Source of the DNA: an uncultured Pseudomonadales bacterium
GTDB taxonomy: Bacteria; Patescibacteriota; Microgenomatia; UBA1400; UBA12028
NCBI GenBank assembly: GCA_964492495.1
Contig: CAZBKJ010000001.1
Span: forward strand, 2,251 to 66,250
DNA length: 64,000 nucleotides
Direction: 5' to 3'
The notes beneath the pieces were generated by a model that was not told where the DNA came from, did no database searches, and saw nothing but the letters and a program-made list of their open reading frames with translations. The translations under genes were made by a program, and so were the position numbers. Each line of letters starts with the position of its first letter. The stretch's first letter is position 1. Positions 1 to 58,544 of this stretch are shown piece after piece.

Positions 1-1524
1 GTCTCCAGATAAGCGTTCAGACATACGGTCGATATCAAGGATAATTCCGTCGATTCCTTTTTGTAGATAGCTTTCAATTTCCCAAATCTGACTTGGAAGC
101 TGCAGCACGGGGTAGAGTCGGGTTTTACTTGACCTGACCACACCGGCCTGCATCAGTAGAGACATGGTTGTGTGGATTTTATGTGTTAGGTGAGTGCCGG
201 CTATACTCACACCAAGAGAGATGGTTGGATGGAGTTTTTTGAGTGCAATAAACGCAGTAATCTCTGTGTCGACTGCGAGTTGTGATTGATCAAGATTAAT
301 CGCGTAGAGAAAGCCTTTTGCAGGATCGATGTGCTTTGAAAGGAAATGAAATGACTGGGCAATCTGATGAACACAGACGTTTCTGGATCGTATCGTTTTC
401 TGTGCCTCAAAATGAGAAAGAATTGCATTTGTTTGAATAACAAGGTGACCTGATACTTTTTGACTTGTCGGAAGATGTCCTGATGGGGATACTGTATAGT
501 CAAGACCAAGAGGGAAACTTTCTGGCAACTGGACGTGAGATTTTTTTGGCAGTTTTTTCTCTGGACTCACGGAAGGAACGCCGACTTGTTTCACAGGTTT
601 GATCTCAAGTCTTTTTGATTCCAAAACAAAGAATTCAGTTCCATCAAATCCAAACACAACTTCTTGGGGGAAAAAGAAGTGCTGTTGTACCTTTTTTGCC
701 AATTTTGCAAGTTGTTCAAGTGATGCTTGCGACAATTTTCTCTTTTGCACCCGAGTTGCTGGTGTGAGTGTTTTTGTTGCATTCCCATTGTCCCAAAAGA
801 ACTCATGTGACTGTTTGTCGAGAGCTTTTTTTTGTTCCTCACCACTGGGAATTGAAATCCAGTAGTAGTCAGAACCGTCAAGCTCGTCAGTGAGCGCACC
901 TTCTCCCCAGACAGCCTTGATAAGGGCAGTGTGTTTTGCCGGAGTGGTGGGGTCTGTTGTATAGAGTTGTCCAGTGACAACAAATCGTGGCTGTTTTTGA
1001 ATAGTAATCGCAAATGGTAAGTCAAAATGACTCTTGTCATGTTTTAACCGATAAAAAAGCGGTTTTATATCAAAAAAATGACTCCACAACTGTCGTATTC
1101 CATCAAAGAGATTTGCATCACCCTGGTAGCCAAAGTAGGTACGATCCGAGCTGGTAAAAAGCGACGATATTTTTTCTTCCAGAAAGATGCTTGGAGACAA
1201 CATCACTCGAGGCTCTTTCATCCCAATATATTGAGCAAGAATGGGGTGGGCTATGTGTTCTGGAAACTGTCCATAGCGAATATGTTTTTGAATCTCTTTG
1301 GATTTCTTTTGCAGTAGCTTACTGTCAGTGGGGATCGGTGCTGATAAAATTTCATTGATCTTTTCGTCTAAATTGTTGTATTCACAAAACTGCTCGAATG
1401 CATGCGACGACACAATGAAGCCATTTGGAACAGGAAGTTTTGCAGACAACATGGACGAAAGTTTCTGTCCACGAGTTCCAGCTTGGATGTGTTCTGAGTG
1501 TGTATCAATTTTCATTACTACCAT
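1..1524 (-). CDS. PEP-utilizing enzyme / pyruvate,water dikinase-like protein (PPDK_N domain), truncated by the window edge (C-terminus missing)
   Basis: A continuous minus-strand frame from ATG ~1524 down to position 1 was translated by hand. It is absent from the ORF track only because no stop falls inside the window. N-terminus MKIDTHSEHIQAGTRGQKLSSMLSAKLPVPNGFIVSSHAFEQF matches the PEP/pyruvate-binding domain of PEP synthase/PPDK; GIRQLWSHFFDIKPLFYRL matches the conserved WASLF..RA.SYR region. Confidence 0.6.
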   Translation of the reverse strand, partial: MVVMKIDTHSEHIQAGTRGQKLSSMLSAKLPVPNGFIVSSHAFEQFCEYNNLDEKINEILSAPIPTDSKLLQKKSKEIQKHIRYGQFPEHIAHPILAQYIGMKEPRVMLSPSIFLEEKISSLFTSSDRTYFGYQGDANLFDGIRQLWSHFFDIKPLFYRLKHDKSHFDLPFAITIQKQPRFVVTGQLYTTDPTTPAKHTALIKAVWGEGALTDELDGSDYYWISIPSGEEQKKALDKQSHEFFWDNGNATKTLTPATRVQKRKLSQASLEQLAKLAKKVQQHFFFPQEVVFGFDGTEFFVLESKRLEIKPVKQVGVPSVSPEKKLPKKSHVQLPESFPLGLDYTVSPSGHLPTSQKVSGHLVIQTNAILSHFEAQKTIRSRNVCVHQIAQSFHFLSKHIDPAKGFLYAINLDQSQLAVDTEITAFIALKKLHPTISLGVSIAGTHLTHKIHTTMSLLMQAGVVRSSKTRLYPVLQLPSQIWEIESYLQKGIDGIILDIDRMSERLSGD

Positions 1525-51737: not shown

Positions 51738-51940
51738 ATTCAGGTTCTAAAATGTAAGTTTGGATACGTAGGAGCGATATTAGCAGAGACATAGTGCATT
51801 TTTGAGCAGGAGTATGGGTCGCACTGGACCTTGTGATATTTCGGACCCACCCCGTCACCGCCAGCTGGCGGTTCCCACCACTTCTTATCTGCTAGAATCA
51901 AAAACTACAAAAAAAACCGCGGGAAGCGGCTTTTTTATTG

Positions 51941-51960
51941 TTTGTGACCCCACCCGAATT
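51941..51960 (-). repeat. direct repeat of the 3'-terminal ~19 nt of tRNA-Glu (gaattcgggtggggtcaca), 125 bp downstream of the intact tRNA
   Basis: Plus-strand tgtgaccccacccgaattc occurs at 51942-51960 and again at 52085-52103. The interval between them contains a 12-bp hairpin and a truncated T-arm-like remnant. Confidence 0.7.
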
Positions 51961-52049
51961 CTCCCCGCAAGGGGGATGGGGCAGGTCACCTCATTGGTGA
52001 CTTGCCCTTAGAATCGGATTCGACTCCTATTCTGTGAGGAGTACAAGGT

Positions 52050-52079
52050 AAAAAAAATCAGGCTATAGCCTGATTTTTT
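52050..52079. terminator. bidirectional rho-independent terminator (A8-tcaggc-tata-gcctga-T6), 3' of tRNA-Glu
   Basis: Perfect palindrome flanked by A-run and T-run. Confidence 0.7.
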
Positions 52080-52085
52080 CACCTG

Positions 52086-52158
52086 TGACCCCACCCGAAT
52101 TCGAATCGGGGTTACCAGGATGAGAACCTGGTGTCCTAGGCCTCTAGACGATGGGGCC
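52086..52158 (-). tRNA. tRNA-Glu (anticodon CUC), 73 nt, CCA not encoded
   Basis: Reverse complement reads GGCCCCA-TC-GTC-TAGAGGCCTAG-GAC-A-CCAGG-TTCTCAT-CCTGG-TAAC-CCCGA-TTCGAAT-TCGGG-TGGGGTC-A. This gives a 7-bp acceptor stem (one GU), a 3-bp D stem as in bacterial tRNA-Glu, and a TTCGAAT T-loop. Confidence 0.85.
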
Positions 52159-52419
52159 ATGCGCCATTTTTTCTAAATGGTCCGTAAGCATGATCTTTAC
52201 AGCTCTTTTACCTTTTGTAGTTTTTAAGTAATTTTCTCTTCTTCTCGCATCTTTCTCTGAAAGAAACGCTTCGTAGAATATGAGTCGGACAGTACCCATT
52301 CTTTTTGTTGAATACACACCTTTACTGAGATGCTTACGGATTCTTTCTTTTAAGTTTGCCGTAAATCCTGTGTATATTTTCCCAGTATCTCTACTTTGTA
52401 AGAGATATACGTAATACAT
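52144..52419 (-). CDS. GIY-YIG nuclease superfamily protein (small, UPF0213-like); its last ~5 codons overlap the 5' end of tRNA-Glu
   Basis: YYVYLLQSRDTGKIYTGFTANLKERIRKH (GIY...YIG). The ATG is at 52419; the ORF track uses TTG at 52425. Confidence 0.7.
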   Translation of the reverse strand: MYYVYLLQSRDTGKIYTGFTANLKERIRKHLSKGVYSTKRMGTVRLIFYEAFLSEKDARRRENYLKTTKGKRAVKIMLTDHLEKMAHGPIV

Positions 52420-52488
52420 TAGCAATACTCTATCATGAACCAGAATAAATTCGATTCATGACCATGAACCGTGCTTTGCACTGGTTCA

Positions 52489-52625
52489 CGGGACGATGGG
52501 GCCAAGCTGAGCTTGGCTATACTTGCGCTTAGCGCAAGTGCCTCTTCAAACCAATACTAATCCGAGCTTAGCTCGGGTGCCAAACTGATGACTATCTTAC
52601 TTACGCTGGGCGCAAGTGCCTCTAT
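52489..52625. repeat. array of short perfect hairpins plus repeats: tRNA-Glu 5'-end fragment copy (gacgatggggcc), three 7-bp-stem/3-nt-loop hairpins (52501-17, 52522-38, 52562-76), and a 14-mer gcgcaagtgcctct x2
   Basis: Read directly from the sequence between the two GIY-YIG genes. Confidence 0.6.
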
Positions 52626-52628
52626 TAA

Positions 52629-52919
52629 TCATGTATTGTACTTGAGTTTTTCAAAAATATGTCTTAACTGTATCTTTAGCTCTTTTTTTCCTTTACCACC
52701 TTTTAGATAAGTTTCTCTCTGCTTTGCGTCACTTTGTTCGACATACGCTTCGTAATATATGAGGACAAGTGGTCTTCTATACTTTGTGGCACTTACGAAT
52801 CCGTTTACATGAGCTTTATATCGAGATTTCAAATCGTGCGTAAAACCCGTATAAAGTTGCTTGTCTTTTCCTGAATACAAGATGTACATGTAATACATTT
52901 GTACATTTAATTTTATCAC
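52629..52919 (-). CDS. GIY-YIG nuclease superfamily protein (second tandem copy)
   Basis: MYYMYILYSGKDKQLYTGFTHDLKSRYKAH; the true start is probably MYYMYIL (52895). Confidence 0.7.
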   Translation of the reverse strand: MIKLNVQMYYMYILYSGKDKQLYTGFTHDLKSRYKAHVNGFVSATKYRRPLVLIYYEAYVEQSDAKQRETYLKGGKGKKELKIQLRHIFEKLKYNT

Positions 52920-53726: not shown

Positions 53727-56700
53727 ATGGCCAATCTTGACATTATCATTCCAGTCTTTAATGAAGAAGCGACCATTGGCCCGTTAATTTCGCGGATCGA
53801 TAAGATACTTCGCAAAGAACACATCCCATATCATATAATTGTTGTGGATGATCGCTCTACTGACAGAAGCCTAGAACGAGTAAAAAAGGCAAGTCAAAGT
53901 TTCCCAATCACAGTTCTTAAGAAAAAAGGCCAGCAAGGAAAAGCTTTTTCTATTCTTGAGGGTATAAAAGCCTCGACCAGTGACTACATCTGTATGATCG
54001 ATGCCGATCTGCAGTATCCTCCTGAAGCAATTCCAGCGTTGTTTGATCTTGCACAGATATCCGGTGTCGCAGTAGCTCGTCGTATCACCTACGGTGGTTC
54101 TGTTGTCAGACGTATTGGAAGCAGAATACTTGCTTTTGTCCTAGGAAAGCTTCTGCATGGAATCCACTGCGATATGCAGTCGGGACTTAAGGTTTTTAAG
54201 AAAGAAATCACTGAGTTTATTAATGTCGACGAGATTACTCCTTGGGCTTTTGATCTTCCATTACTTCATGCCGCCAAACAAATGGGGTATGACATAGCAG
54301 AAGTTCCTATCGATTTCACTGAACGAGAAAATGGTGATTCAAAACTCACTCTTCTTGGTCCAACTGTACAGATTGCCAAGGGCGCGCTTCGATTAAAGTT
54401 CACAACGATCCATCCGCGAGTGATTCTTCCAGATACAAAAGAATCCATGAAAGGTGCAGGTTTTGTCCATAAAGGCAAGCGATTTATCACGCACTCAACA
54501 CTTCATCACTCAAAGAGTGCACTGCTTGTGATAACCCCAAGTCAAAAAACAGTTTTCTTTATTATTCTTGCTCTTTTTTGTTTTGGGGCAGTATTTGCGA
54601 CACTTTTTACCTTTAAGATTGCTGTTGCCATACTTTCATTTGTCTACTTTATTGATGTGTTGTTTAACTTTTTCCTTATCCTTCGAAGTCTTCAATCACC
54701 TCCAGAAATTAGTTCAGACAAGAACGAGATCTTGGCACTCAAAGATAAAGATCTCCCTGTCTATTCGATTCTATGTCCGTTGTATAAGGAAGCCCATGTT
54801 ATTCCTCAATTTGTTGAAAGTATTTCCAATCTTGATTGGCCAAAATCAAAGCTTGAAGTAATGCTTCTCTTGGAAGAAGACGATACGGAGTCAATCGAAG
54901 CAGTCAAAGACATGAACTTGCCTTCATATATTCGAAGTGTCGTTGTTCCAAACTCTCAACCAAAAACCAAACCAAAAGCATGTAACTACGGACTCAGTCA
55001 CGCGAAAGGCGAGTACTTGGTCATTTTTGATGCAGAAGACAATCCAGATCCACTTCAATTAAAGAAAGCGTACTTGGGATTCCAGAAGGTTGGTCCAAAT
55101 ATTCGCTGTTTGCAAGCAAAGCTTAATTACTACAACCCAACACAAAATGTCCTTACCCGCATGTTTACTGCAGAGTATTCACTCTGGTTTGACGTCATTT
55201 TGACGGGACTTCAATCCATTCAAACGACAATTCCTTTGGGTGGAACCAGTAATCACTTCCGCACAAAAGATCTGTTGGAGCTTGAAGGATGGGATCCGTT
55301 TAACGTCACAGAAGACTGTGACCTCGGAATCAGACTGTTTAAGCACGGCTACAAAACCGCAATCATCGACTCAACGACTCTTGAAGAAGCAAACAGTAAT
55401 GTTCTCAACTGGATTAGACAGAGAAGCAGATGGATTAAAGGCTACATGCAGACATATCTTCTCCACATGCGAGATCCTTTAGACTTTTTTAGTACACAAG
55501 GAATTCATGCATTATTGTTCCAGCTGACCGTTGGTGGAAAGATTGCCTTTATTTTAATCAACCCAATTTTGTGGGTTTTGACGATTTTGTACTTTACCTT
55601 AAATGCAGTTGTCGGGCCGACGATCGAAGCTCTGTACCCGTCAATTGTGTTCTACATGGCCGTGACATCACTTGTTTTTGGAAACTTCATGTTTATTTAC
55701 TACTACATGTTGGGTGCAGCAAAGCGTGAACAGTGGTGGCTCATGAAATGGATCTATCTTGTTCCGATCTATTGGTTGATGGTCAGTGTGGCTGCCTGCA
55801 TGGCTCTGTATCAACTGATAGTAAAACCACACTACTGGGAAAAGACCATTCACGGTCTACACCTAAAAAAAAAGCTTGAAAATGAAGCAAAAGAGACTGC
55901 AAAGGTTGTAACTGCATCTATTTTAGCCGAAGTTGAAACCAAAAAACCTCCTGTACAGCCAAGTGAGAGCACAGCCTACACAAAAAAAAGAATACAGTCG
56001 TTTGGAGTTTTCTCAAATCTTTTGAAGTATCGAAGAAGTTTCACTGGTATTTTCTCCAAGATTATCAAAGGTGAGTATCGTGGAGGAGCTTTACTTGTAG
56101 CGGCAACGATGGCAGCAAATGTGCTGAACATGGGAACAAACTTCTACATGGGGCATGCACTACGATTGACTGATTTTGCACTCTTTAATACATACCTCAG
56201 TTTGTTAAACATTATCTCAATCTTTTCTTCATCGCTTGGAACAACTGTCAATCAACGCTCAGCACACTTACTTGGAAAAATTGGGCATACACGTGCCGTC
56301 AATTTCTGGAGACATATAAAGAATCGAGTATTCTTTGTTTCTCTTATCCTCACTGGGCTGTGGGTCATCTGTATCCCGATGACAAGTTCATTTTTAAGTA
56401 TTGATTCCAATATACCGCTCTTATTGTTTACTCCAATTTTGCTTCTTCTTGGTATTAATGCTGTGAATCAAGGGTATTTGCGTGGAGCACTCGCCTTTGA
56501 ACTCGTTGCTGTTGTGACGATACTTCAGCCACTGACCCGGTTACTATCGACGATAATTTTCGGAGAGCTCACCTATGGTGAGTATGCGTACTTGTCGATT
56601 CCTACCGGAGTTGTAGTTGCAGCATTGGTTTCTCACTTCTTTGCGAGAAAAGGTGAGTCTGTGGAGATTGCACACAAAGATTTGAAGCTTCCAAAGACAT

Positions 56701-58544
56701 TTTTCTTTTTGGCTTTGCTTGCGAACCTCTCTTCTATTGGGTTCTTTAGTCTTGATAACATTTTTGTGGCTCACTATCTGACTGCACAAGAAACTGGACA
56801 GTATGGAATTCTGGGACTACTTGGCAAAATGATCTTCTTCTCCGGAAGTCTGATTACCGGCTTTATCCTTCCGATTACGGCTTTTCGTGAAGGAAAAGGG
56901 TTGTCATCAGATGCTGTGTTCAAGAAACTGCTTCTTGTTACTGTCGCAATTTCAACCCTCGCCTTCTTGGCTATCGGGGTAGGAATTCCCCTCATTGCAC
57001 CATACATGTTTGGGGCGAAGATCAATGCAATCAGGCCGTTCCTGACACTCTATAGTGCAAGTATTCTCCTCTATACAGTTTCTCAGGCAATTGTTCAGTT
57101 TCATCTAGCAAAGAAGAACTATGTGTTTGCTGTGGCTTCATTTGCGGTCACCTTGATTCAAGGGCTTTTACTCGCGCTGTTTCATCGAACTTTGGGTGAA
57201 GTGGTCATCGCCATGTTTGCCACAAGTGTGGTGAATATCGGGGTTTTATTGATTCTTCATGTGTTTTTAGAGCGGGTCACGATCGTACTTTCAAACATCA
57301 GAGATTTCTTTGATCTGCTTTTTGGAAAACTGCGACAGTCTTCTCGTTCGTTTGAAAAGAAAGATACCTATAGAGTTCTCATCTTTAACTGGAGAGATAC
57401 AAAACATAAATGGGCAGGTGGAGCAGAGATGTATGTTCATGAAATGGCCAAGAATCTTGTCAAAAAAGGACACAAGGTTACGGTCTTTTGTGGAAACGAT
57501 GGGAAGTCAGTTCGAAATGAAGTTGTTGATGGAGTACAGGTGATTCGTCGCGGTGGATTTTATACGGTCTATTTCTGGGCGTTTTTATACTATACTCTTC
57601 GACTTCGAAACTATGTTGATATTGTTATCGATAGTGAAAATGGAATCCCATTTTTAACTCCATTCTATGTGCGAAAACCAATCTATTTACTGATTCATCA
57701 TGTGCATCAGGAAATATTTCGAACGCAACTGCGATTCCCTTTATCTGAAATTGCATTGTTTATCGAAGGTGACCTGATGCCATTCTCGTACAAGAGACAT
57801 TCAGTTATTACGGTTTCAGAGTCCTCAAAAGAAGAAATCATTGATCTGGGTCTTGGAAGTGCAAAGACTATCAAAGTCATCAACCCTGGAATCGATCATA
57901 GTTTGTTTGGTCGTCAAAAGAAAACAGCCTATCCATCTTTAGTATATGTTGGTAGGCTGAAACCATATAAGAATATTGACACTGCATTGTATGCGTTTGC
58001 GACTGTTTTGGAAAAGTTCCCGCAGGCAAAGTTCTCTATCGCTGGACTCGGAGAAAGCCTACGTTCCTTGAAAGAACTAGCAAAGAAATTAGAGATTGAA
58101 CATGCGGTGACATTCTTGCAAAAAATTGATGACAAAGAAAAAGCACGTTTATTTGCTCGAAGCTGGGTGGCAGTCCAGCCATCAATGATTGAAGGCTGGG
58201 GAATCACAGTCATTGAATCAAACGCATCTGGAACACCTGTCGTTGCTTCCAATGTCAAAGGACTCAAAGATTCCATCAAAGACAAAGAAACGGGAGTATT
58301 GGTAGAGGTTGCTAATACAAAAGCGTTCGCTACTGCCATCGTTGATCTCTTTTCAAATGAAAAGAAACGAAACCAGATGAGTGAATCCGCATTGAACTGG
58401 TCGCAAAAATTTACCTGGGAAATAAGCACAAAAGCGTTTGTAACGGAGTTTAATTCTGGAATGCATGTGGAAGCACAATCACGAAAGAAACTTTCGTTTG
58501 ATCGTATGCCTGTGACGGCAAAAATGTATGAAAAAAGTCGATAA
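53727..58544 (+). CDS. 1605-aa multidomain glycosyltransferase fusion: GT2 (DPM1-like), TM, processive GT2 (QxxRW), ~430-aa polytopic domain (flippase/polymerase-like), GT4
   Basis: Uninterrupted ORF in the track. GT2-1: IIIPVFNEE...VVDDRSTD...DADLQYP. GT2-2: VYSILCPLYKE...FDAEDNPDP...QRSRWIKG. Polytopic block of more than 12 hydrophobic helices spans residues ~760-1190. GT4: YRVLIFNWRDTKHKWAGGAEMY... and EGWGITVIESNASGTPVVAS...ETGVLVE (EX7E). Confidence 0.8.
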   Translation: MANLDIIIPVFNEEATIGPLISRIDKILRKEHIPYHIIVVDDRSTDRSLERVKKASQSFPITVLKKKGQQGKAFSILEGIKASTSDYICMIDADLQYPPEAIPALFDLAQISGVAVARRITYGGSVVRRIGSRILAFVLGKLLHGIHCDMQSGLKVFKKEITEFINVDEITPWAFDLPLLHAAKQMGYDIAEVPIDFTERENGDSKLTLLGPTVQIAKGALRLKFTTIHPRVILPDTKESMKGAGFVHKGKRFITHSTLHHSKSALLVITPSQKTVFFIILALFCFGAVFATLFTFKIAVAILSFVYFIDVLFNFFLILRSLQSPPEISSDKNEILALKDKDLPVYSILCPLYKEAHVIPQFVESISNLDWPKSKLEVMLLLEEDDTESIEAVKDMNLPSYIRSVVVPNSQPKTKPKACNYGLSHAKGEYLVIFDAEDNPDPLQLKKAYLGFQKVGPNIRCLQAKLNYYNPTQNVLTRMFTAEYSLWFDVILTGLQSIQTTIPLGGTSNHFRTKDLLELEGWDPFNVTEDCDLGIRLFKHGYKTAIIDSTTLEEANSNVLNWIRQRSRWIKGYMQTYLLHMRDPLDFFSTQGIHALLFQLTVGGKIAFILINPILWVLTILYFTLNAVVGPTIEALYPSIVFYMAVTSLVFGNFMFIYYYMLGAAKREQWWLMKWIYLVPIYWLMVSVAACMALYQLIVKPHYWEKTIHGLHLKKKLENEAKETAKVVTASILAEVETKKPPVQPSESTAYTKKRIQSFGVFSNLLKYRRSFTGIFSKIIKGEYRGGALLVAATMAANVLNMGTNFYMGHALRLTDFALFNTYLSLLNIISIFSSSLGTTVNQRSAHLLGKIGHTRAVNFWRHIKNRVFFVSLILTGLWVICIPMTSSFLSIDSNIPLLLFTPILLLLGINAVNQGYLRGALAFELVAVVTILQPLTRLLSTIIFGELTYGEYAYLSIPTGVVVAALVSHFFARKGESVEIAHKDLKLPKTFFFLALLANLSSIGFFSLDNIFVAHYLTAQETGQYGILGLLGKMIFFSGSLITGFILPITAFREGKGLSSDAVFKKLLLVTVAISTLAFLAIGVGIPLIAPYMFGAKINAIRPFLTLYSASILLYTVSQAIVQFHLAKKNYVFAVASFAVTLIQGLLLALFHRTLGEVVIAMFATSVVNIGVLLILHVFLERVTIVLSNIRDFFDLLFGKLRQSSRSFEKKDTYRVLIFNWRDTKHKWAGGAEMYVHEMAKNLVKKGHKVTVFCGNDGKSVRNEVVDGVQVIRRGGFYTVYFWAFLYYTLRLRNYVDIVIDSENGIPFLTPFYVRKPIYLLIHHVHQEIFRTQLRFPLSEIALFIEGDLMPFSYKRHSVITVSESSKEEIIDLGLGSAKTIKVINPGIDHSLFGRQKKTAYPSLVYVGRLKPYKNIDTALYAFATVLEKFPQAKFSIAGLGESLRSLKELAKKLEIEHAVTFLQKIDDKEKARLFARSWVAVQPSMIEGWGITVIESNASGTPVVASNVKGLKDSIKDKETGVLVEVANTKAFATAIVDLFSNEKKRNQMSESALNWSQKFTWEISTKAFVTEFNSGMHVEAQSRKKLSFDRMPVTAKMYEKSR

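What the first reader, a model, noticed from the sequence alone, without database searches (positions are those of the whole stretch)
51941..52158. tRNA-Glu(CUC) with a 19-nt direct repeat of its 3' end 125 bp away: att-site-like scar and degenerate tRNA remnant
Seen in sequence: an intact 73-nt tRNA-Glu on the minus strand (52086-52158). An exact copy of its 3'-terminal 19 nt sits at 51942-51960. The interval between them holds a 12-bp hairpin, a truncated T-arm-like segment and a perfect bidirectional terminator. Established knowledge: integrases that target tRNA genes leave direct repeats of the tRNA 3' end at island boundaries. Here the repeats are too close to bracket an island. This looks instead like the remnant of an excised or decayed element, or a tandem tRNA duplication, next to the AT-rich block at 48.5-51.7 kb. 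A further weak copy (ggacccaccccgtcacc) may sit at 51846-51862.
Basis: partly seen in the sequence, partly recalled or inferred. Interest (0 to 1): 0.5.

Follow-up and report, generated by a model that had tools for sequence, protein, structure and literature searches.

The report
Nuclease cassette embedded in tRNA-Glu gene
The repeated 19 bases are the tail of a broken second copy of a glutamate tRNA gene, one boundary of a small hairpin-plus-nuclease gene cassette that recurs at tRNA-Glu genes in several uncultured (candidate phyla radiation, CPR) bacteria and looks like an undescribed tRNA-targeting mobile unit.

Summary
tRNA-Glu(CUC) lies at 52086-52158 (-).

It is half of a larger, symmetric layout. 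The tRNA's 5' end (nt -4..12, 15/16) is also repeated, at 52492-52507. That copy lies upstream of a 91-aa single-domain GIY-YIG nuclease gene whose last codons and stop lie inside the tRNA. The 5' copy is split after nt 12 by an inverted pair of a conserved 30-nt hairpin. The 3' copy appears split in the T-loop (56/57) by a 49-bp hairpin insert.

Homologues of this nuclease (50-76% identity) abut a tRNA-Glu or tRNA-Gln gene in all 9 other gene neighbourhoods sampled. Most carry the same hairpin pair and partial copies of their own tRNA. Two genomes with a near-identical tRNA lack all of this.

The gene-plus-oriented-hairpin design matches the Ssn family of single-strand DNA nucleases (2025). 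No paper found links that family to tRNA genes.

No integrase is present, and no distal att copy was found. The weak third copy and the "AT-rich island" are not supported.

Best reading: remnants of a tRNA-Glu gene invaded by a hairpin-guided nuclease cassette. The mechanism is inferred.

The parts
52086..52158 (-). Intact tRNA-Glu(CUC).
   Evidence: ARAGORN; Rfam RF00005, 53.9 bits.
52084..52102 (-). 19-mer copy 1: tRNA nt 57-73 plus the trailing CA, inside and just after the intact tRNA.
51943..51961 (-). 19-mer copy 2 (block C): the 3' end of a broken outer tRNA copy, 19/19 identical to copy 1.
51962..52010 (-). 49-bp insert that splits the outer copy's T-loop between nt 56 and 57. It holds a 12-bp hairpin (51979-52007), a short hairpin (51963-51974), and a copy of tRNA nt 2-9, GCCCCATC (51975-51982).
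   Evidence: Sequence; RNA and DNA folds.
52011..52018 (-). TCCGATTC, matching tRNA nt 49-56 at 7/8 (T-stem 5' strand plus the 5' half of the T-loop of the outer copy). With the insert removed, 26/27 nt match the tRNA.
   Evidence: Weak on its own: 4.7% of shuffled spacers hold such a match.
52024..52041 (-). Hairpin CTCC-N10-GGAG, sitting where an anticodon arm of the outer copy would lie. Identity uncertain.
52052..52079 (.). T1: perfect 28-bp palindrome with A and T runs, a bidirectional terminator just after the intact tRNA.
   Evidence: I3.
51910..51936 (-). T2: terminator just after the outer 3' fragment. It is probably the terminator of the original gene (inference).
52144..52419 (-). 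GIY-YIG-1: 91-aa single-domain GIY-YIG nuclease gene. Its last 4 codons (GPIV) and TAG stop lie inside the tRNA (52144-52158).
   Evidence: Pfam PF01541, 1.7e-15; identical 91-aa protein on record; nearest solved structure UPF0213 1zg2, 2e-8.
52428..52432 (-). TAGAG, equal to tRNA nt 13-17: the outer 5' copy continuing after the hairpin pair.
   Evidence: Longer versions occur in L019, L021 and L023.
52433..52461 (+). Hairpin element E, inverted copy. Its bulged-A form lies on the + strand.
   Evidence: Covariance model R1, 37.7 bits, E 1e-8.
52462..52491 (-). Hairpin element E, forward copy. It starts directly after nt 12 of the outer 5' fragment.
   Evidence: R1, 43.5 bits; covariation; DNA fold z -4.45.
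52492..52507 (-). Block A: outer copy of the tRNA 5' end (leader -4..-1 plus nt 1-12), 15/16 identical to 52147-52162.
   Evidence: (D7).
52501..52620 (-). Three or four further hairpin repeats at 39-nt spacing, three of them with a GGCAC 5' flank, downstream of the second GIY-YIG gene. The last one overlaps block A.
   Evidence: D1, D2, I1.
52629..52898 (-). GIY-YIG-2: a second single-domain GIY-YIG gene of a different subfamily (44% identity to GIY-YIG-1). It has its own conserved C-terminus.

Best explanation
The 19-mer is the 3' end of a broken outer copy of the tRNA-Glu gene.

Layout. The working tRNA lies inside a unit of about 530 bp (52491 down to 51962, minus strand). In order, the unit holds an inverted pair of a 30-nt hairpin element, a 91-aa single-domain GIY-YIG nuclease gene that runs into the tRNA, the tRNA, a terminator, and more hairpins. 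The unit is bounded on the left by tRNA nt -4..12 and on the right by tRNA nt 57-75. The outer gene's own terminator follows.

The nuclease. It is built like the Ssn family. Those are about 94-aa GIY-YIG enzymes that bind an oriented hairpin on single-stranded DNA and cut a few bases upstream, and whose genes are flanked by their own hairpins. Here the forward hairpin starts exactly after tRNA nt 12, so the tRNA-derived flank is the likely cut site.

Proposed mechanism (inferred). The enzyme breaks single-stranded tRNA-Glu DNA. Repair from a cassette-bearing template, or template switching, places the cassette in the gene. The two gene ends are left outside, and an intact tRNA copy next to the nuclease gene keeps the cell supplied.

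Shown: the anatomy; its recurrence at tRNA-Glu and tRNA-Gln genes; hairpin conservation with covariation; two fetched loci with a near-identical tRNA but no cassette.

Inferred: nuclease specificity, mobility and the repair route.
For: (1) Both ends of the tRNA are repeated outside it, on the same strand: 19/19 downstream and 15/16 upstream.

(2) Homologues of GIY-YIG-1 (50-76% identity) directly precede or overlap a tRNA-Glu(CUC), tRNA-Glu(UUC) or tRNA-Gln(CUG) gene in all 9 non-viral homologue neighbourhoods fetched: L008/9, L010-15, L016/17, L019, L020, L021, L022, L023 and L024. L016/17 and L024 share synteny, so these are 8 independent contexts.

(3) In the family, 28 of 122 proteins end in [GAC][PAL][IFV]V. 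This is the translation of the tRNA 5' end up to the D-loop TAG. None of 120 proteins of the GIY-YIG-2 family do.

(4) Partial copies of each locus's own tRNA recur at the same places:
- nt 1-12 exact in L008, L010, L020 and L021, and nt 1-14 in L023;
- 12/13 in L022, where the tRNA is tRNA-Gln;
- nt -4..35 plus 36-49 exact in L020;
- the same 19-nt 3' span (nt 57 to +2), exact, 93 bp downstream in L016, and 17 nt exact in its relative L024, although the spacer between has diverged.

(5) The hairpin is one conserved element. Cells are 93.7% paired, 7 of 13 pairs change on both sides, and 0 of 500 shuffles reach this. The covariance model finds it only upstream of these genes: as an inverted pair in most loci, as a single inverted copy in L008, and next to a weaker second hairpin in L019. 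The forward copy starts right after tRNA nt 12 in the window, L010, L020 and L021. There is no hit elsewhere in the 64-kb window or in L003/L004.

(6) L003 and L004 carry a tRNA one base different from the window's. In the DNA fetched they have no nuclease gene, no hairpins and no fragments. For L004 only 225 nt upstream of the tRNA are held.

(7) L010 and L019 share an identical hairpin and 83%-identical nucleases, yet sit at different tRNA-Glu isoacceptor genes.

(8) Ssn biology as published: PMC11893778.
Against: - No filled and empty pair from one species is available. The organism has no close relative in the collections: sortase homologues reach 41% identity at most.
- Only one copy per contig is seen, so transposition is not shown.
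- The outer fragments are identical to the inner tRNA, including leader bases. This fits an in-place duplication at least as well as import of a foreign tRNA.
- The 12-19 nt blocks are short for homologous repair.
- The hairpins on the 3' side are not of the E type (no R1 hit).
- The published Ssn-motif pattern finds no match.
- Assignment to cd10448 could not be tested. The nearest solved structures are UPF0213 proteins.
- The T-stem piece that makes the 3' copy look 'split' is only marginally significant (p about 0.05).
- In L019 and L010 some outer fragments differ from the resident tRNA, so histories are layered.
Confidence: 0.5

Rival explanations
1. Integrase att scar. A tyrosine-recombinase element integrated with its crossover in the T-loop of tRNA-Glu. 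It duplicated the T-loop-to-3'-end segment and was later almost wholly deleted, leaving 122 bp.
For: A T-loop-to-3'-end identity block of 17-22 nt is the classic footprint of one class of tRNA-targeting integrases (established knowledge; Williams 2002, from memory). In L010 and L015 a 40-nt 3' fragment (39/40) brackets Bro-N and RhuM genes 1.55 kb from the tRNA. A phage contig carries a 27-nt 3' piece of this very tRNA.
Against: No integrase or recombinase domain in any ORF of 150 aa or more from 39.5 to 63.3 kb. No other copy of the 19-mer in the window. The same 19-nt span with only a 93-120 bp spacer recurs in L016 and L024, which would need parallel near-total deletions. This reading does not explain the mirrored 5' repeat or the link to the nuclease gene.
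Confidence: 0.15
2. Plain tandem duplication of the tRNA gene followed by decay. The nuclease genes and hairpins are unrelated neighbours.
For: Partial tRNA copies flank the intact gene. CPR intergenic DNA here is rich in hairpins.
Against: The fragments are exact, with sharp ends at the same tRNA positions (12/13 and 56/57) in lineages whose tRNAs differ. Neighbouring bases are unrecognisable, so decay is not uniform. C stays exact between L016 and L024 while the spacer diverges. The nuclease-tRNA junction is conserved across the family.
Confidence: 0.12
3. The downstream piece is a functional structured RNA or single-stranded DNA element, tRNA-like. The exact 19-mer is kept by selection for pairing or recognition and is not a remnant.
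For: The 180-nt trailer folds far better than shuffles (z -7.6), with the 19-mer paired to upstream bases and closing three hairpins. The DNA folds give z -4.2 and -5.0. C is conserved in L016 and L024.
Against: A strong terminator (T1) separates it from the tRNA transcript. The z-score includes two terminators. The short piece alone gives z -2.0. There is no Rfam match and no covariation data. Spacer sequences are not alike between lineages.
Confidence: 0.08

Closest known systems
Ssn nucleases with their NTS/SRM hairpin repeats (Chenal et al. 2025, PMC11893778)
   Same: A single-domain GIY-YIG protein of about 90 aa. An oriented 20-50-nt hairpin repeat lies next to its own gene, with a short conserved flank ending in GTC just 5' of the hairpin (here tRNA nt 9-12, CGTC or AGTC). 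The authors note that the gene-plus-hairpins layout looks IS-like.
   Different: Here both hairpin copies lie upstream, as an abutting inverted pair. The hairpin is longer and has a bulged A. The published SRM pattern does not match. The flank is a tRNA gene fragment. The gene abuts a tRNA. The paper does not mention tRNA at all. Membership of cd10448 is untested.
Phage T4 SegB, a free-standing GIY-YIG homing endonuclease in a tRNA gene cluster (PMC2330249)
   Same: A GIY-YIG nuclease gene beside tRNA genes. Its recognition site includes the conserved T-stem-loop sequence, and it spreads itself together with neighbouring tRNA genes. Here one boundary also lies in the T-loop.
   Different: SegB cuts double-stranded DNA. 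By my recollection it is about 220 aa with a DNA-binding domain, acts between co-infecting phages and leaves no partial tRNA repeats or hairpins. The protein here is 91 aa with no extra domain.
tRNA-targeting integrative elements and genomic islands
   Same: A direct repeat of the tRNA 3' end starting in the T-loop, with the intact gene on one side.
   Different: No integrase. Only 122 bp lie between the repeats. A mirrored 5' repeat is present. The link is to a nuclease gene instead.
IS200/IS605 elements and REP/RAYT systems
   Same: A small nuclease acting on hairpins in single-stranded DNA. There is no target duplication at the hairpin insertion point (GTC|hairpins|TAG). The element abuts a fixed short target sequence.
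   Different: No HUH/Y1 transposase. The hairpins form an inverted abutting pair rather than sitting one at each end. No genome-wide spread of copies is seen in the window.

Membership tests
tRNA (Rfam RF00005) | Cloverleaf scoring above the gathering threshold, with an anticodon. | tested here: met
   53.9 bits against a threshold of 29; ARAGORN anticodon CTC.
Integrase-type tRNA att site / genomic island | An integrase or recombinase gene next to the tRNA or the repeat. | tested here: not met
   Pfam scans of ORFs from 39.5 to 63.3 kb show none.
Integrase-type tRNA att site / genomic island | Direct repeats of the tRNA 3' end bracketing an island of foreign genes. | tested here: not met
   The repeats bracket 122 non-coding bp. 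No further copy exists in the window with up to 5 mismatches.
Ssn family (cd10448) with SRM hairpins | A single-domain GIY-YIG protein of about 90-100 aa. | tested here: met
   91 aa; PF01541 covers residues 3-73 and no other domain is found.
Ssn family (cd10448) with SRM hairpins | Oriented hairpin repeats (20-50 nt) flanking the gene. | tested here: met
   Two 30-nt copies upstream. Covariation. The model prefers one orientation: 43.5 against 18.8 bits.
Ssn family (cd10448) with SRM hairpins | A match to the published degenerate SRM pattern HGTCWYN(0-2)YYVSBRHN(0-5)WNVSBRGN(0-2)RNCYNB. | tested here: not met
   No match in the window or in 11 loci. Only the GTC flank is shared.
Ssn family (cd10448) with SRM hairpins | CDD assignment to cd10448 rather than UPF0213 (cd10456). 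| not testable with these tools
   No CDD is available and no SsnA sequence is held. The best PDB hits are UPF0213 proteins 1zg2 and 1ywl.
Ssn family (cd10448) with SRM hairpins | Cleavage of single-stranded DNA only, a few nt 5' of the hairpin. | not testable with these tools
   Needs biochemistry.
GIY-YIG homing endonucleases (I-TevI, SegB type) | A GIY-YIG catalytic domain joined to a C-terminal DNA-binding domain. | tested here: not met
   Only the catalytic domain is present. The TIGR01453 match is weak, 18 bits against a cut-off of 56.
GIY-YIG homing endonucleases (I-TevI, SegB type) | Presence/absence polymorphism at an otherwise conserved target. | tested here: inconclusive
   L003 and L004 have the same tRNA without the gene. 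They are different organisms with different neighbours, not alleles.
IS200/IS605 | An HUH/Y1 transposase (TnpA), or TnpB. | tested here: not met
   No such domain near the locus.

The most novel reading that the evidence does not exclude
Ssn-type GIY-YIG genes with their hairpins are tRNA-Glu/Gln-targeting mobile cassettes in CPR and related bacteria. The tRNA-derived flank beside each hairpin would be the enzyme's single-strand cut site. Insertion would split the tRNA gene while an intact copy is regenerated or carried next to the nuclease gene. That would give the Ssn family a natural target and a mobility mechanism, and would add a new way for selfish DNA to occupy an essential gene.
Probability: 0.3. 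Interest if true: 0.8.

Novelty: new variant of a known kind. Interest (0 to 1): 0.6.

Why it matters
Small single-domain GIY-YIG genes are very common: 3447 cluster representatives at 50% identity match this one. Only in 2025 was one branch shown to be hairpin-guided single-strand DNA nucleases, and their role outside Neisseria is unknown.

A precise, recurring link to tRNA-Glu genes, with fragments of the target gene at the boundaries, offers three things:
- a concrete hypothesis for what these enzymes cut in nature;
- a candidate mobility mechanism;
- a set of defined oligonucleotide substrates to test it.

There is also a practical point. The annotated nuclease ORF overlaps a tRNA gene, and tRNA fragments near tRNA-Glu in CPR genomes should not be read as integrase att sites by default.

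Tried and rejected
Look-ups and searches that gave nothing useful
- Exact-protein look-ups of the 253-aa neighbour, the sortase and P0001 were not on record, so the source contig could not be fetched.
- A 39-nt tRNA pattern in genome contigs gave 0 hits. A 25-nt pattern found only L003.
- The 19-mer in metagenome contigs gave one true tRNA (L004) and three chance coding hits in GC-rich DNA.
- The 19-mer in viral contigs gave a phage tRNA fragment (L001) and one chance hit.
- The sortase, tried as a synteny anchor, has no homologue above 41% identity.
- The GIY-YIG alignment against viral contigs gave one distant hit with no tRNA, so the cassette is not typically phage-borne.
- An Rfam scan at E up to 10 found nothing but the tRNA.
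- BLAST of the locus against the window found no dispersed repeat family.
- PADLOC gave nothing and PHROGs nothing informative for the 48.5-51.7 kb genes, and NCBIfam nothing informative for the GIY-YIG proteins.
- The published SRM pattern had no match.
- Six literature searches found no description of GIY-YIG genes abutting tRNA-Glu. The paper on group I introns in Patescibacteria tRNAs concerns other tRNAs and has no GIY-YIG.

Ideas dropped
- A TA target duplication around the hairpin pair in L023: the TA is part of the stem.
- A tRNA intron or split tRNA: the outer copy lacks its middle.
- An acceptor-stem partner for the 5' fragment in L010: it is a decayed D-loop.
Full report
**1. Checking the observation**

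ARAGORN finds one tRNA in the 64-kb window: tRNA-Glu(CUC) at 52085-52158 on the minus strand. Rfam's tRNA model matches 52086-52158 at 53.9 bits.

No further match exists with up to 3 mismatches, and none of 100 shuffles gave two matches. My own scan allowing up to 5 mismatches also found nothing more.

Read on the tRNA strand, the repeat is GAATTCGGGTGGGGTCACA. That is tRNA nt 57-73 (3' half of the T-loop, T-stem 3' strand, acceptor 3' strand, discriminator) plus two trailing bases.

- a perfect 28-bp palindromic terminator at 52052-52079;
- a 12-bp hairpin at 51979-52007;
- a T-arm-like piece.

A second terminator follows the repeat at 51910-51936.

The 'weak third copy' at 51846-51862 does not survive. 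The 48.5-51.7 kb block is not compositionally distinct.

**2.

The tRNA 5' end is repeated as well. GCATGGCCCCATCGTC (52147-52162: a 4-nt leader plus tRNA nt 1-12) recurs as GCTTGGCCCCATCGTC at 52492-52507.

Between the two copies lies a 91-aa ORF (52144-52419, minus strand). It is a bare GIY-YIG catalytic domain (PF01541, 1.7e-15). It has no stop codon of its own. Its last codons, GGC CCC ATC GTC TAG, are the first 15 nt of the tRNA.

A second single-domain GIY-YIG gene, 44% identical, lies further upstream at 52629-52898, next to a sortase gene.

Directly after nt 12 of the upstream fragment come two 30-nt hairpins. After them comes TAGAG, which equals tRNA nt 13-17, and then the start codon.

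Downstream of T1, the sequence TCCGATTC matches tRNA nt 49-56 at 7 of 8. It is followed by a 49-bp insert made of two hairpins, and then by the 19-mer. With the insert removed, 26 of 27 nt match the tRNA. This last point is only marginally significant: 4.7% of shuffled spacers hold such a match.

So the intact gene is flanked by a 5' partial copy and a 3' partial copy. The 5' copy is interrupted by hairpins at a loop position (12/13), and the 3' copy appears to be interrupted at another (56/57).

**3. Related loci**

The organism has no close relative in the collections.
- Exact look-ups of its proteins fail.
- Sortase homologues reach 41% identity at most.
- Only two contigs hold a near-identical tRNA, each one base different: L003 and L004.

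In the DNA fetched, those two contigs have no GIY-YIG gene, no hairpins and no tRNA fragments. For L004 only 225 nt upstream of the tRNA are held.

Homologues of the nuclease, by contrast, are plentiful in CPR metagenomes. Names given by sources include Microgenomates, Shapirobacteria, Levybacteria and Omnitrophica.

In all 9 non-viral homologue neighbourhoods the gene directly precedes or overlaps a tRNA on the same strand:

| Loci | tRNA |
|---|---|
| L008/9, L010-15, L016/17, L024 | tRNA-Glu(CUC) |
| L019, L020, L021, L023 | tRNA-Glu(UUC) |
| L022 (an Omnitrophica genome) | tRNA-Gln(CUG) |

Flanking genes differ between these neighbourhoods, apart from L016/17 and L024, which share synteny (8 independent contexts).

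A protein-level proxy agrees. 28 of 122 family members end in [GAC][PAL][IFV]V, the translation of the tRNA 5' end up to the D-loop TAG. A few others end in tails that look like the other two reading frames of that tRNA end. None of 120 members of the GIY-YIG-2 family end this way; they have a conserved LKYKNL end.

**4. The fragments recur and follow each locus's own tRNA**

Upstream of the nuclease gene:

| Locus | Partial 5' copy of the local tRNA |
|---|---|
| L008 | nt 1-12 exact |
| L010 | nt -1..12 exact; this tRNA has a different acceptor stem, GGTCCTG |
| L021 | nt -3..12 exact, plus nt 13-20 |
| L023 | nt 1-14 and nt 13-22 exact |
| L019 | nt 13-25 exact after a degenerate nt 1-12 |
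| L022 | nt 1-13 (12/13) and nt 14-31 exact, of tRNA-Gln |
| L020, distal gene | nt 1-12 (13 exact with one leader base) |
| L020, proximal gene | nt -4..35 and nt 36-49 exact, split in the anticodon loop by its own mini hairpin pair; this gene belongs to a third GIY-YIG subfamily |

Downstream:
- L016 has an exact 19-mer covering the same span as in the window (nt 57 to +2), 93 bp after the tRNA.
- Its relative L024 keeps 17 nt exact about 120 bp downstream, although the spacer has diverged and gained an extra insert.
- L010 has a well-formed T-arm plus acceptor strand of a different tRNA-Glu allele about 72 bp downstream.
- L010 also has a 40-nt fragment (39/40) 1.55 kb away, beyond Bro-N and RhuM genes.

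**5. The hairpins are one conserved element**

Eleven instances align to CCNTGAACC-A-GTGC-AAA-GCAC-GGTTCANGG (A3).
- 93.7% of cells are paired.
- 7 of 13 pairs change on both sides.
- No shuffle out of 500 reaches the observed score, and slid registers collapse to 20-37% pairing.
- ACCA...GGT and a bulged A are invariant or nearly so.

The second hairpin of each pair is the reverse complement of the first. Each DNA strand therefore presents one bulged-A hairpin.

A covariance model built from the alignment hits only upstream of these nuclease genes. This includes instances not used to build it, in L020, L022, L016, L019 and L024. It finds nothing else in the 64-kb window, nor in L003, L004, the viral homologue L018 or the phage contig L001.

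Between L016 and L024 the stems are identical while the loops and the ORF differ. A strand-symmetric design with covarying stems points to hairpins formed by single-stranded DNA. It does not point to a protein operator or to an RNA.

**6. Comparison with what is known**

The design is that of the Ssn family described in 2025 (PMC11893778):
- a protein of about 94 aa that is only a GIY-YIG domain;
- oriented 20-50-nt hairpin repeats beside its own gene;
- binding to the hairpin on single-stranded DNA only, with cleavage a few bases 5' of it;
- a conserved 5' flank containing GTC that sets orientation and cutting.

Here the base triplet before the forward hairpin is GTC in the window, L010, L019, L020 and L021, and that GTC is tRNA-Glu nt 10-12.

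The Ssn paper notes that the gene-plus-hairpins layout looks IS-like. It never mentions tRNA.

Membership is not established:
- the published motif pattern does not match;
- cd10448 cannot be tested here;
- the nearest solved structures are UPF0213 proteins.

T4 SegB is the nearest precedent for a GIY-YIG nuclease that targets tRNA genes. Its site includes the T-stem-loop, and it spreads itself together with tRNA genes. It cuts double-stranded DNA and, as I recall, is a larger two-domain enzyme.

Six literature searches found no description of the linkage reported here.

**7. Explanation**

I read the two exact blocks as the ends of a tRNA-Glu gene that was broken by, or duplicated around, a hairpin-guided nuclease cassette. 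The outer gene keeps its own terminator (T2). The unit inside brings T1.

Points in favour of a recurring, nuclease-linked process:
- the conserved gene-tRNA junction;
- fragments that track each local tRNA, and even a switch to tRNA-Gln;
- identical hairpins at different isoacceptor genes (L010 and L019; nucleases 83% identical);
- stacked cassettes in L020;
- empty sites in L003 and L004.

The route is inferred. It could be repair of a single-strand break from a cassette-bearing template, with the tRNA-derived blocks acting as short homology. It could instead be template switching that returns behind its departure point and so duplicates the target.

The exactness of the blocks, including leader bases, favours duplication in place. 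Their persistence while neighbouring DNA decays (L016 against L024) suggests that they matter to the element, plausibly as the nuclease's cut-site flank.

**8. Rivals and limits**

- Integrase scar. This fits the T-loop boundary and the L010 island. It lacks any integrase and any distal copy. It would need parallel near-complete deletions in separate lineages, and it does not explain the 5' mirror image.
- Simple duplication with decay. This does not explain the sharp, shared boundaries or the uneven conservation.
- A functional structured RNA. The only support is fold energies inflated by two terminators.

What is missing:
- same-species filled and empty alleles;
- any second copy within one genome;
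- biochemistry;
- a hairpin of the E type on the 3' side.

My confidence in the cassette reading is about 0.5. My confidence that the 19-mer is a tRNA remnant rather than chance is near certainty.

Noticed in passing
L001 1274-1300 (IMGVR_UViG_3300045988_166862, a 159-kb phage contig): A 27-nt piece, CCCGATTCGAATTCGGGTGGGGTCACA, is identical to the window tRNA-Glu nt 50-73 plus CA. It sits near a cluster of six phage tRNA genes, but no full tRNA is called at that spot. It may be an attP-like piece or a remnant.
   Followed up: partly
window 52144-52158: The nuclease ORF has no stop codon of its own. Its stop is the TAG in the tRNA D-loop. RNase P processing of a co-transcript would leave a non-stop mRNA, which could act as a built-in brake on nuclease expression.
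   Followed up: no
window 52501-52620: Three or four hairpin repeats at 39-nt spacing, three of them with a GGCAC 5' flank, lie downstream of the second GIY-YIG gene. They may be that enzyme's own hairpin motif. Its family is very uniform: 75 of 120 homologues are exactly 90 aa, with a conserved LKYKNL end.
   Followed up: partly
L010 4426-5917 (also L015): Bro-N, an 87-aa ORF and RhuM genes are bracketed by tRNA-Glu and a 40-nt 3' tRNA fragment (39/40). No integrase is present. In sister contigs L011, L013 and L014 BLAST did not find the fragment and no 87-aa ORF is called, so the region is polymorphic.
   Followed up: partly
L010 4394-4420: A well-formed T-arm plus acceptor 3' strand, ATCGG-CTCGATT-CCGAT-TGGGATC-ACA, lies about 72 nt downstream of the resident tRNA. 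It comes from a different tRNA-Glu allele, which is evidence for layered events at this locus.
   Followed up: no
L020 422-504: A different GIY-YIG subfamily (30-43% identity to the other GIY-YIG proteins compared) also abuts tRNA-Glu. Its upstream partial tRNA copy (nt -4..49, exact) is split at 35/36 by its own pair of mini hairpins. [quoted passage not shown]
   Followed up: partly
window 51975-51982: The 8-mer GCCCCATC (tRNA nt 2-9) sits inside the 49-bp T-loop insert, between its two hairpins. It could pair with the 19-mer's acceptor strand to form a minihelix-like stem.
   Followed up: no
L003 (CAYOQI010000001.1): This record is titled 'uncultured Pseudomonadales'. Yet its tRNA-Glu(CUC) differs by one base from that of a window whose GIY-YIG homologues are named as CPR bacteria. 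The taxonomic label may be wrong.
   Followed up: no
window 53727-58544: A 1605-aa ORF. From its sequence it looks like a fusion of glycosyltransferase domains with a long membrane region, but I ran no domain search on it. It lies divergently from the sortase gene, and a further glycosylation gene cluster follows at 58.5-63.3 kb.
   Followed up: no
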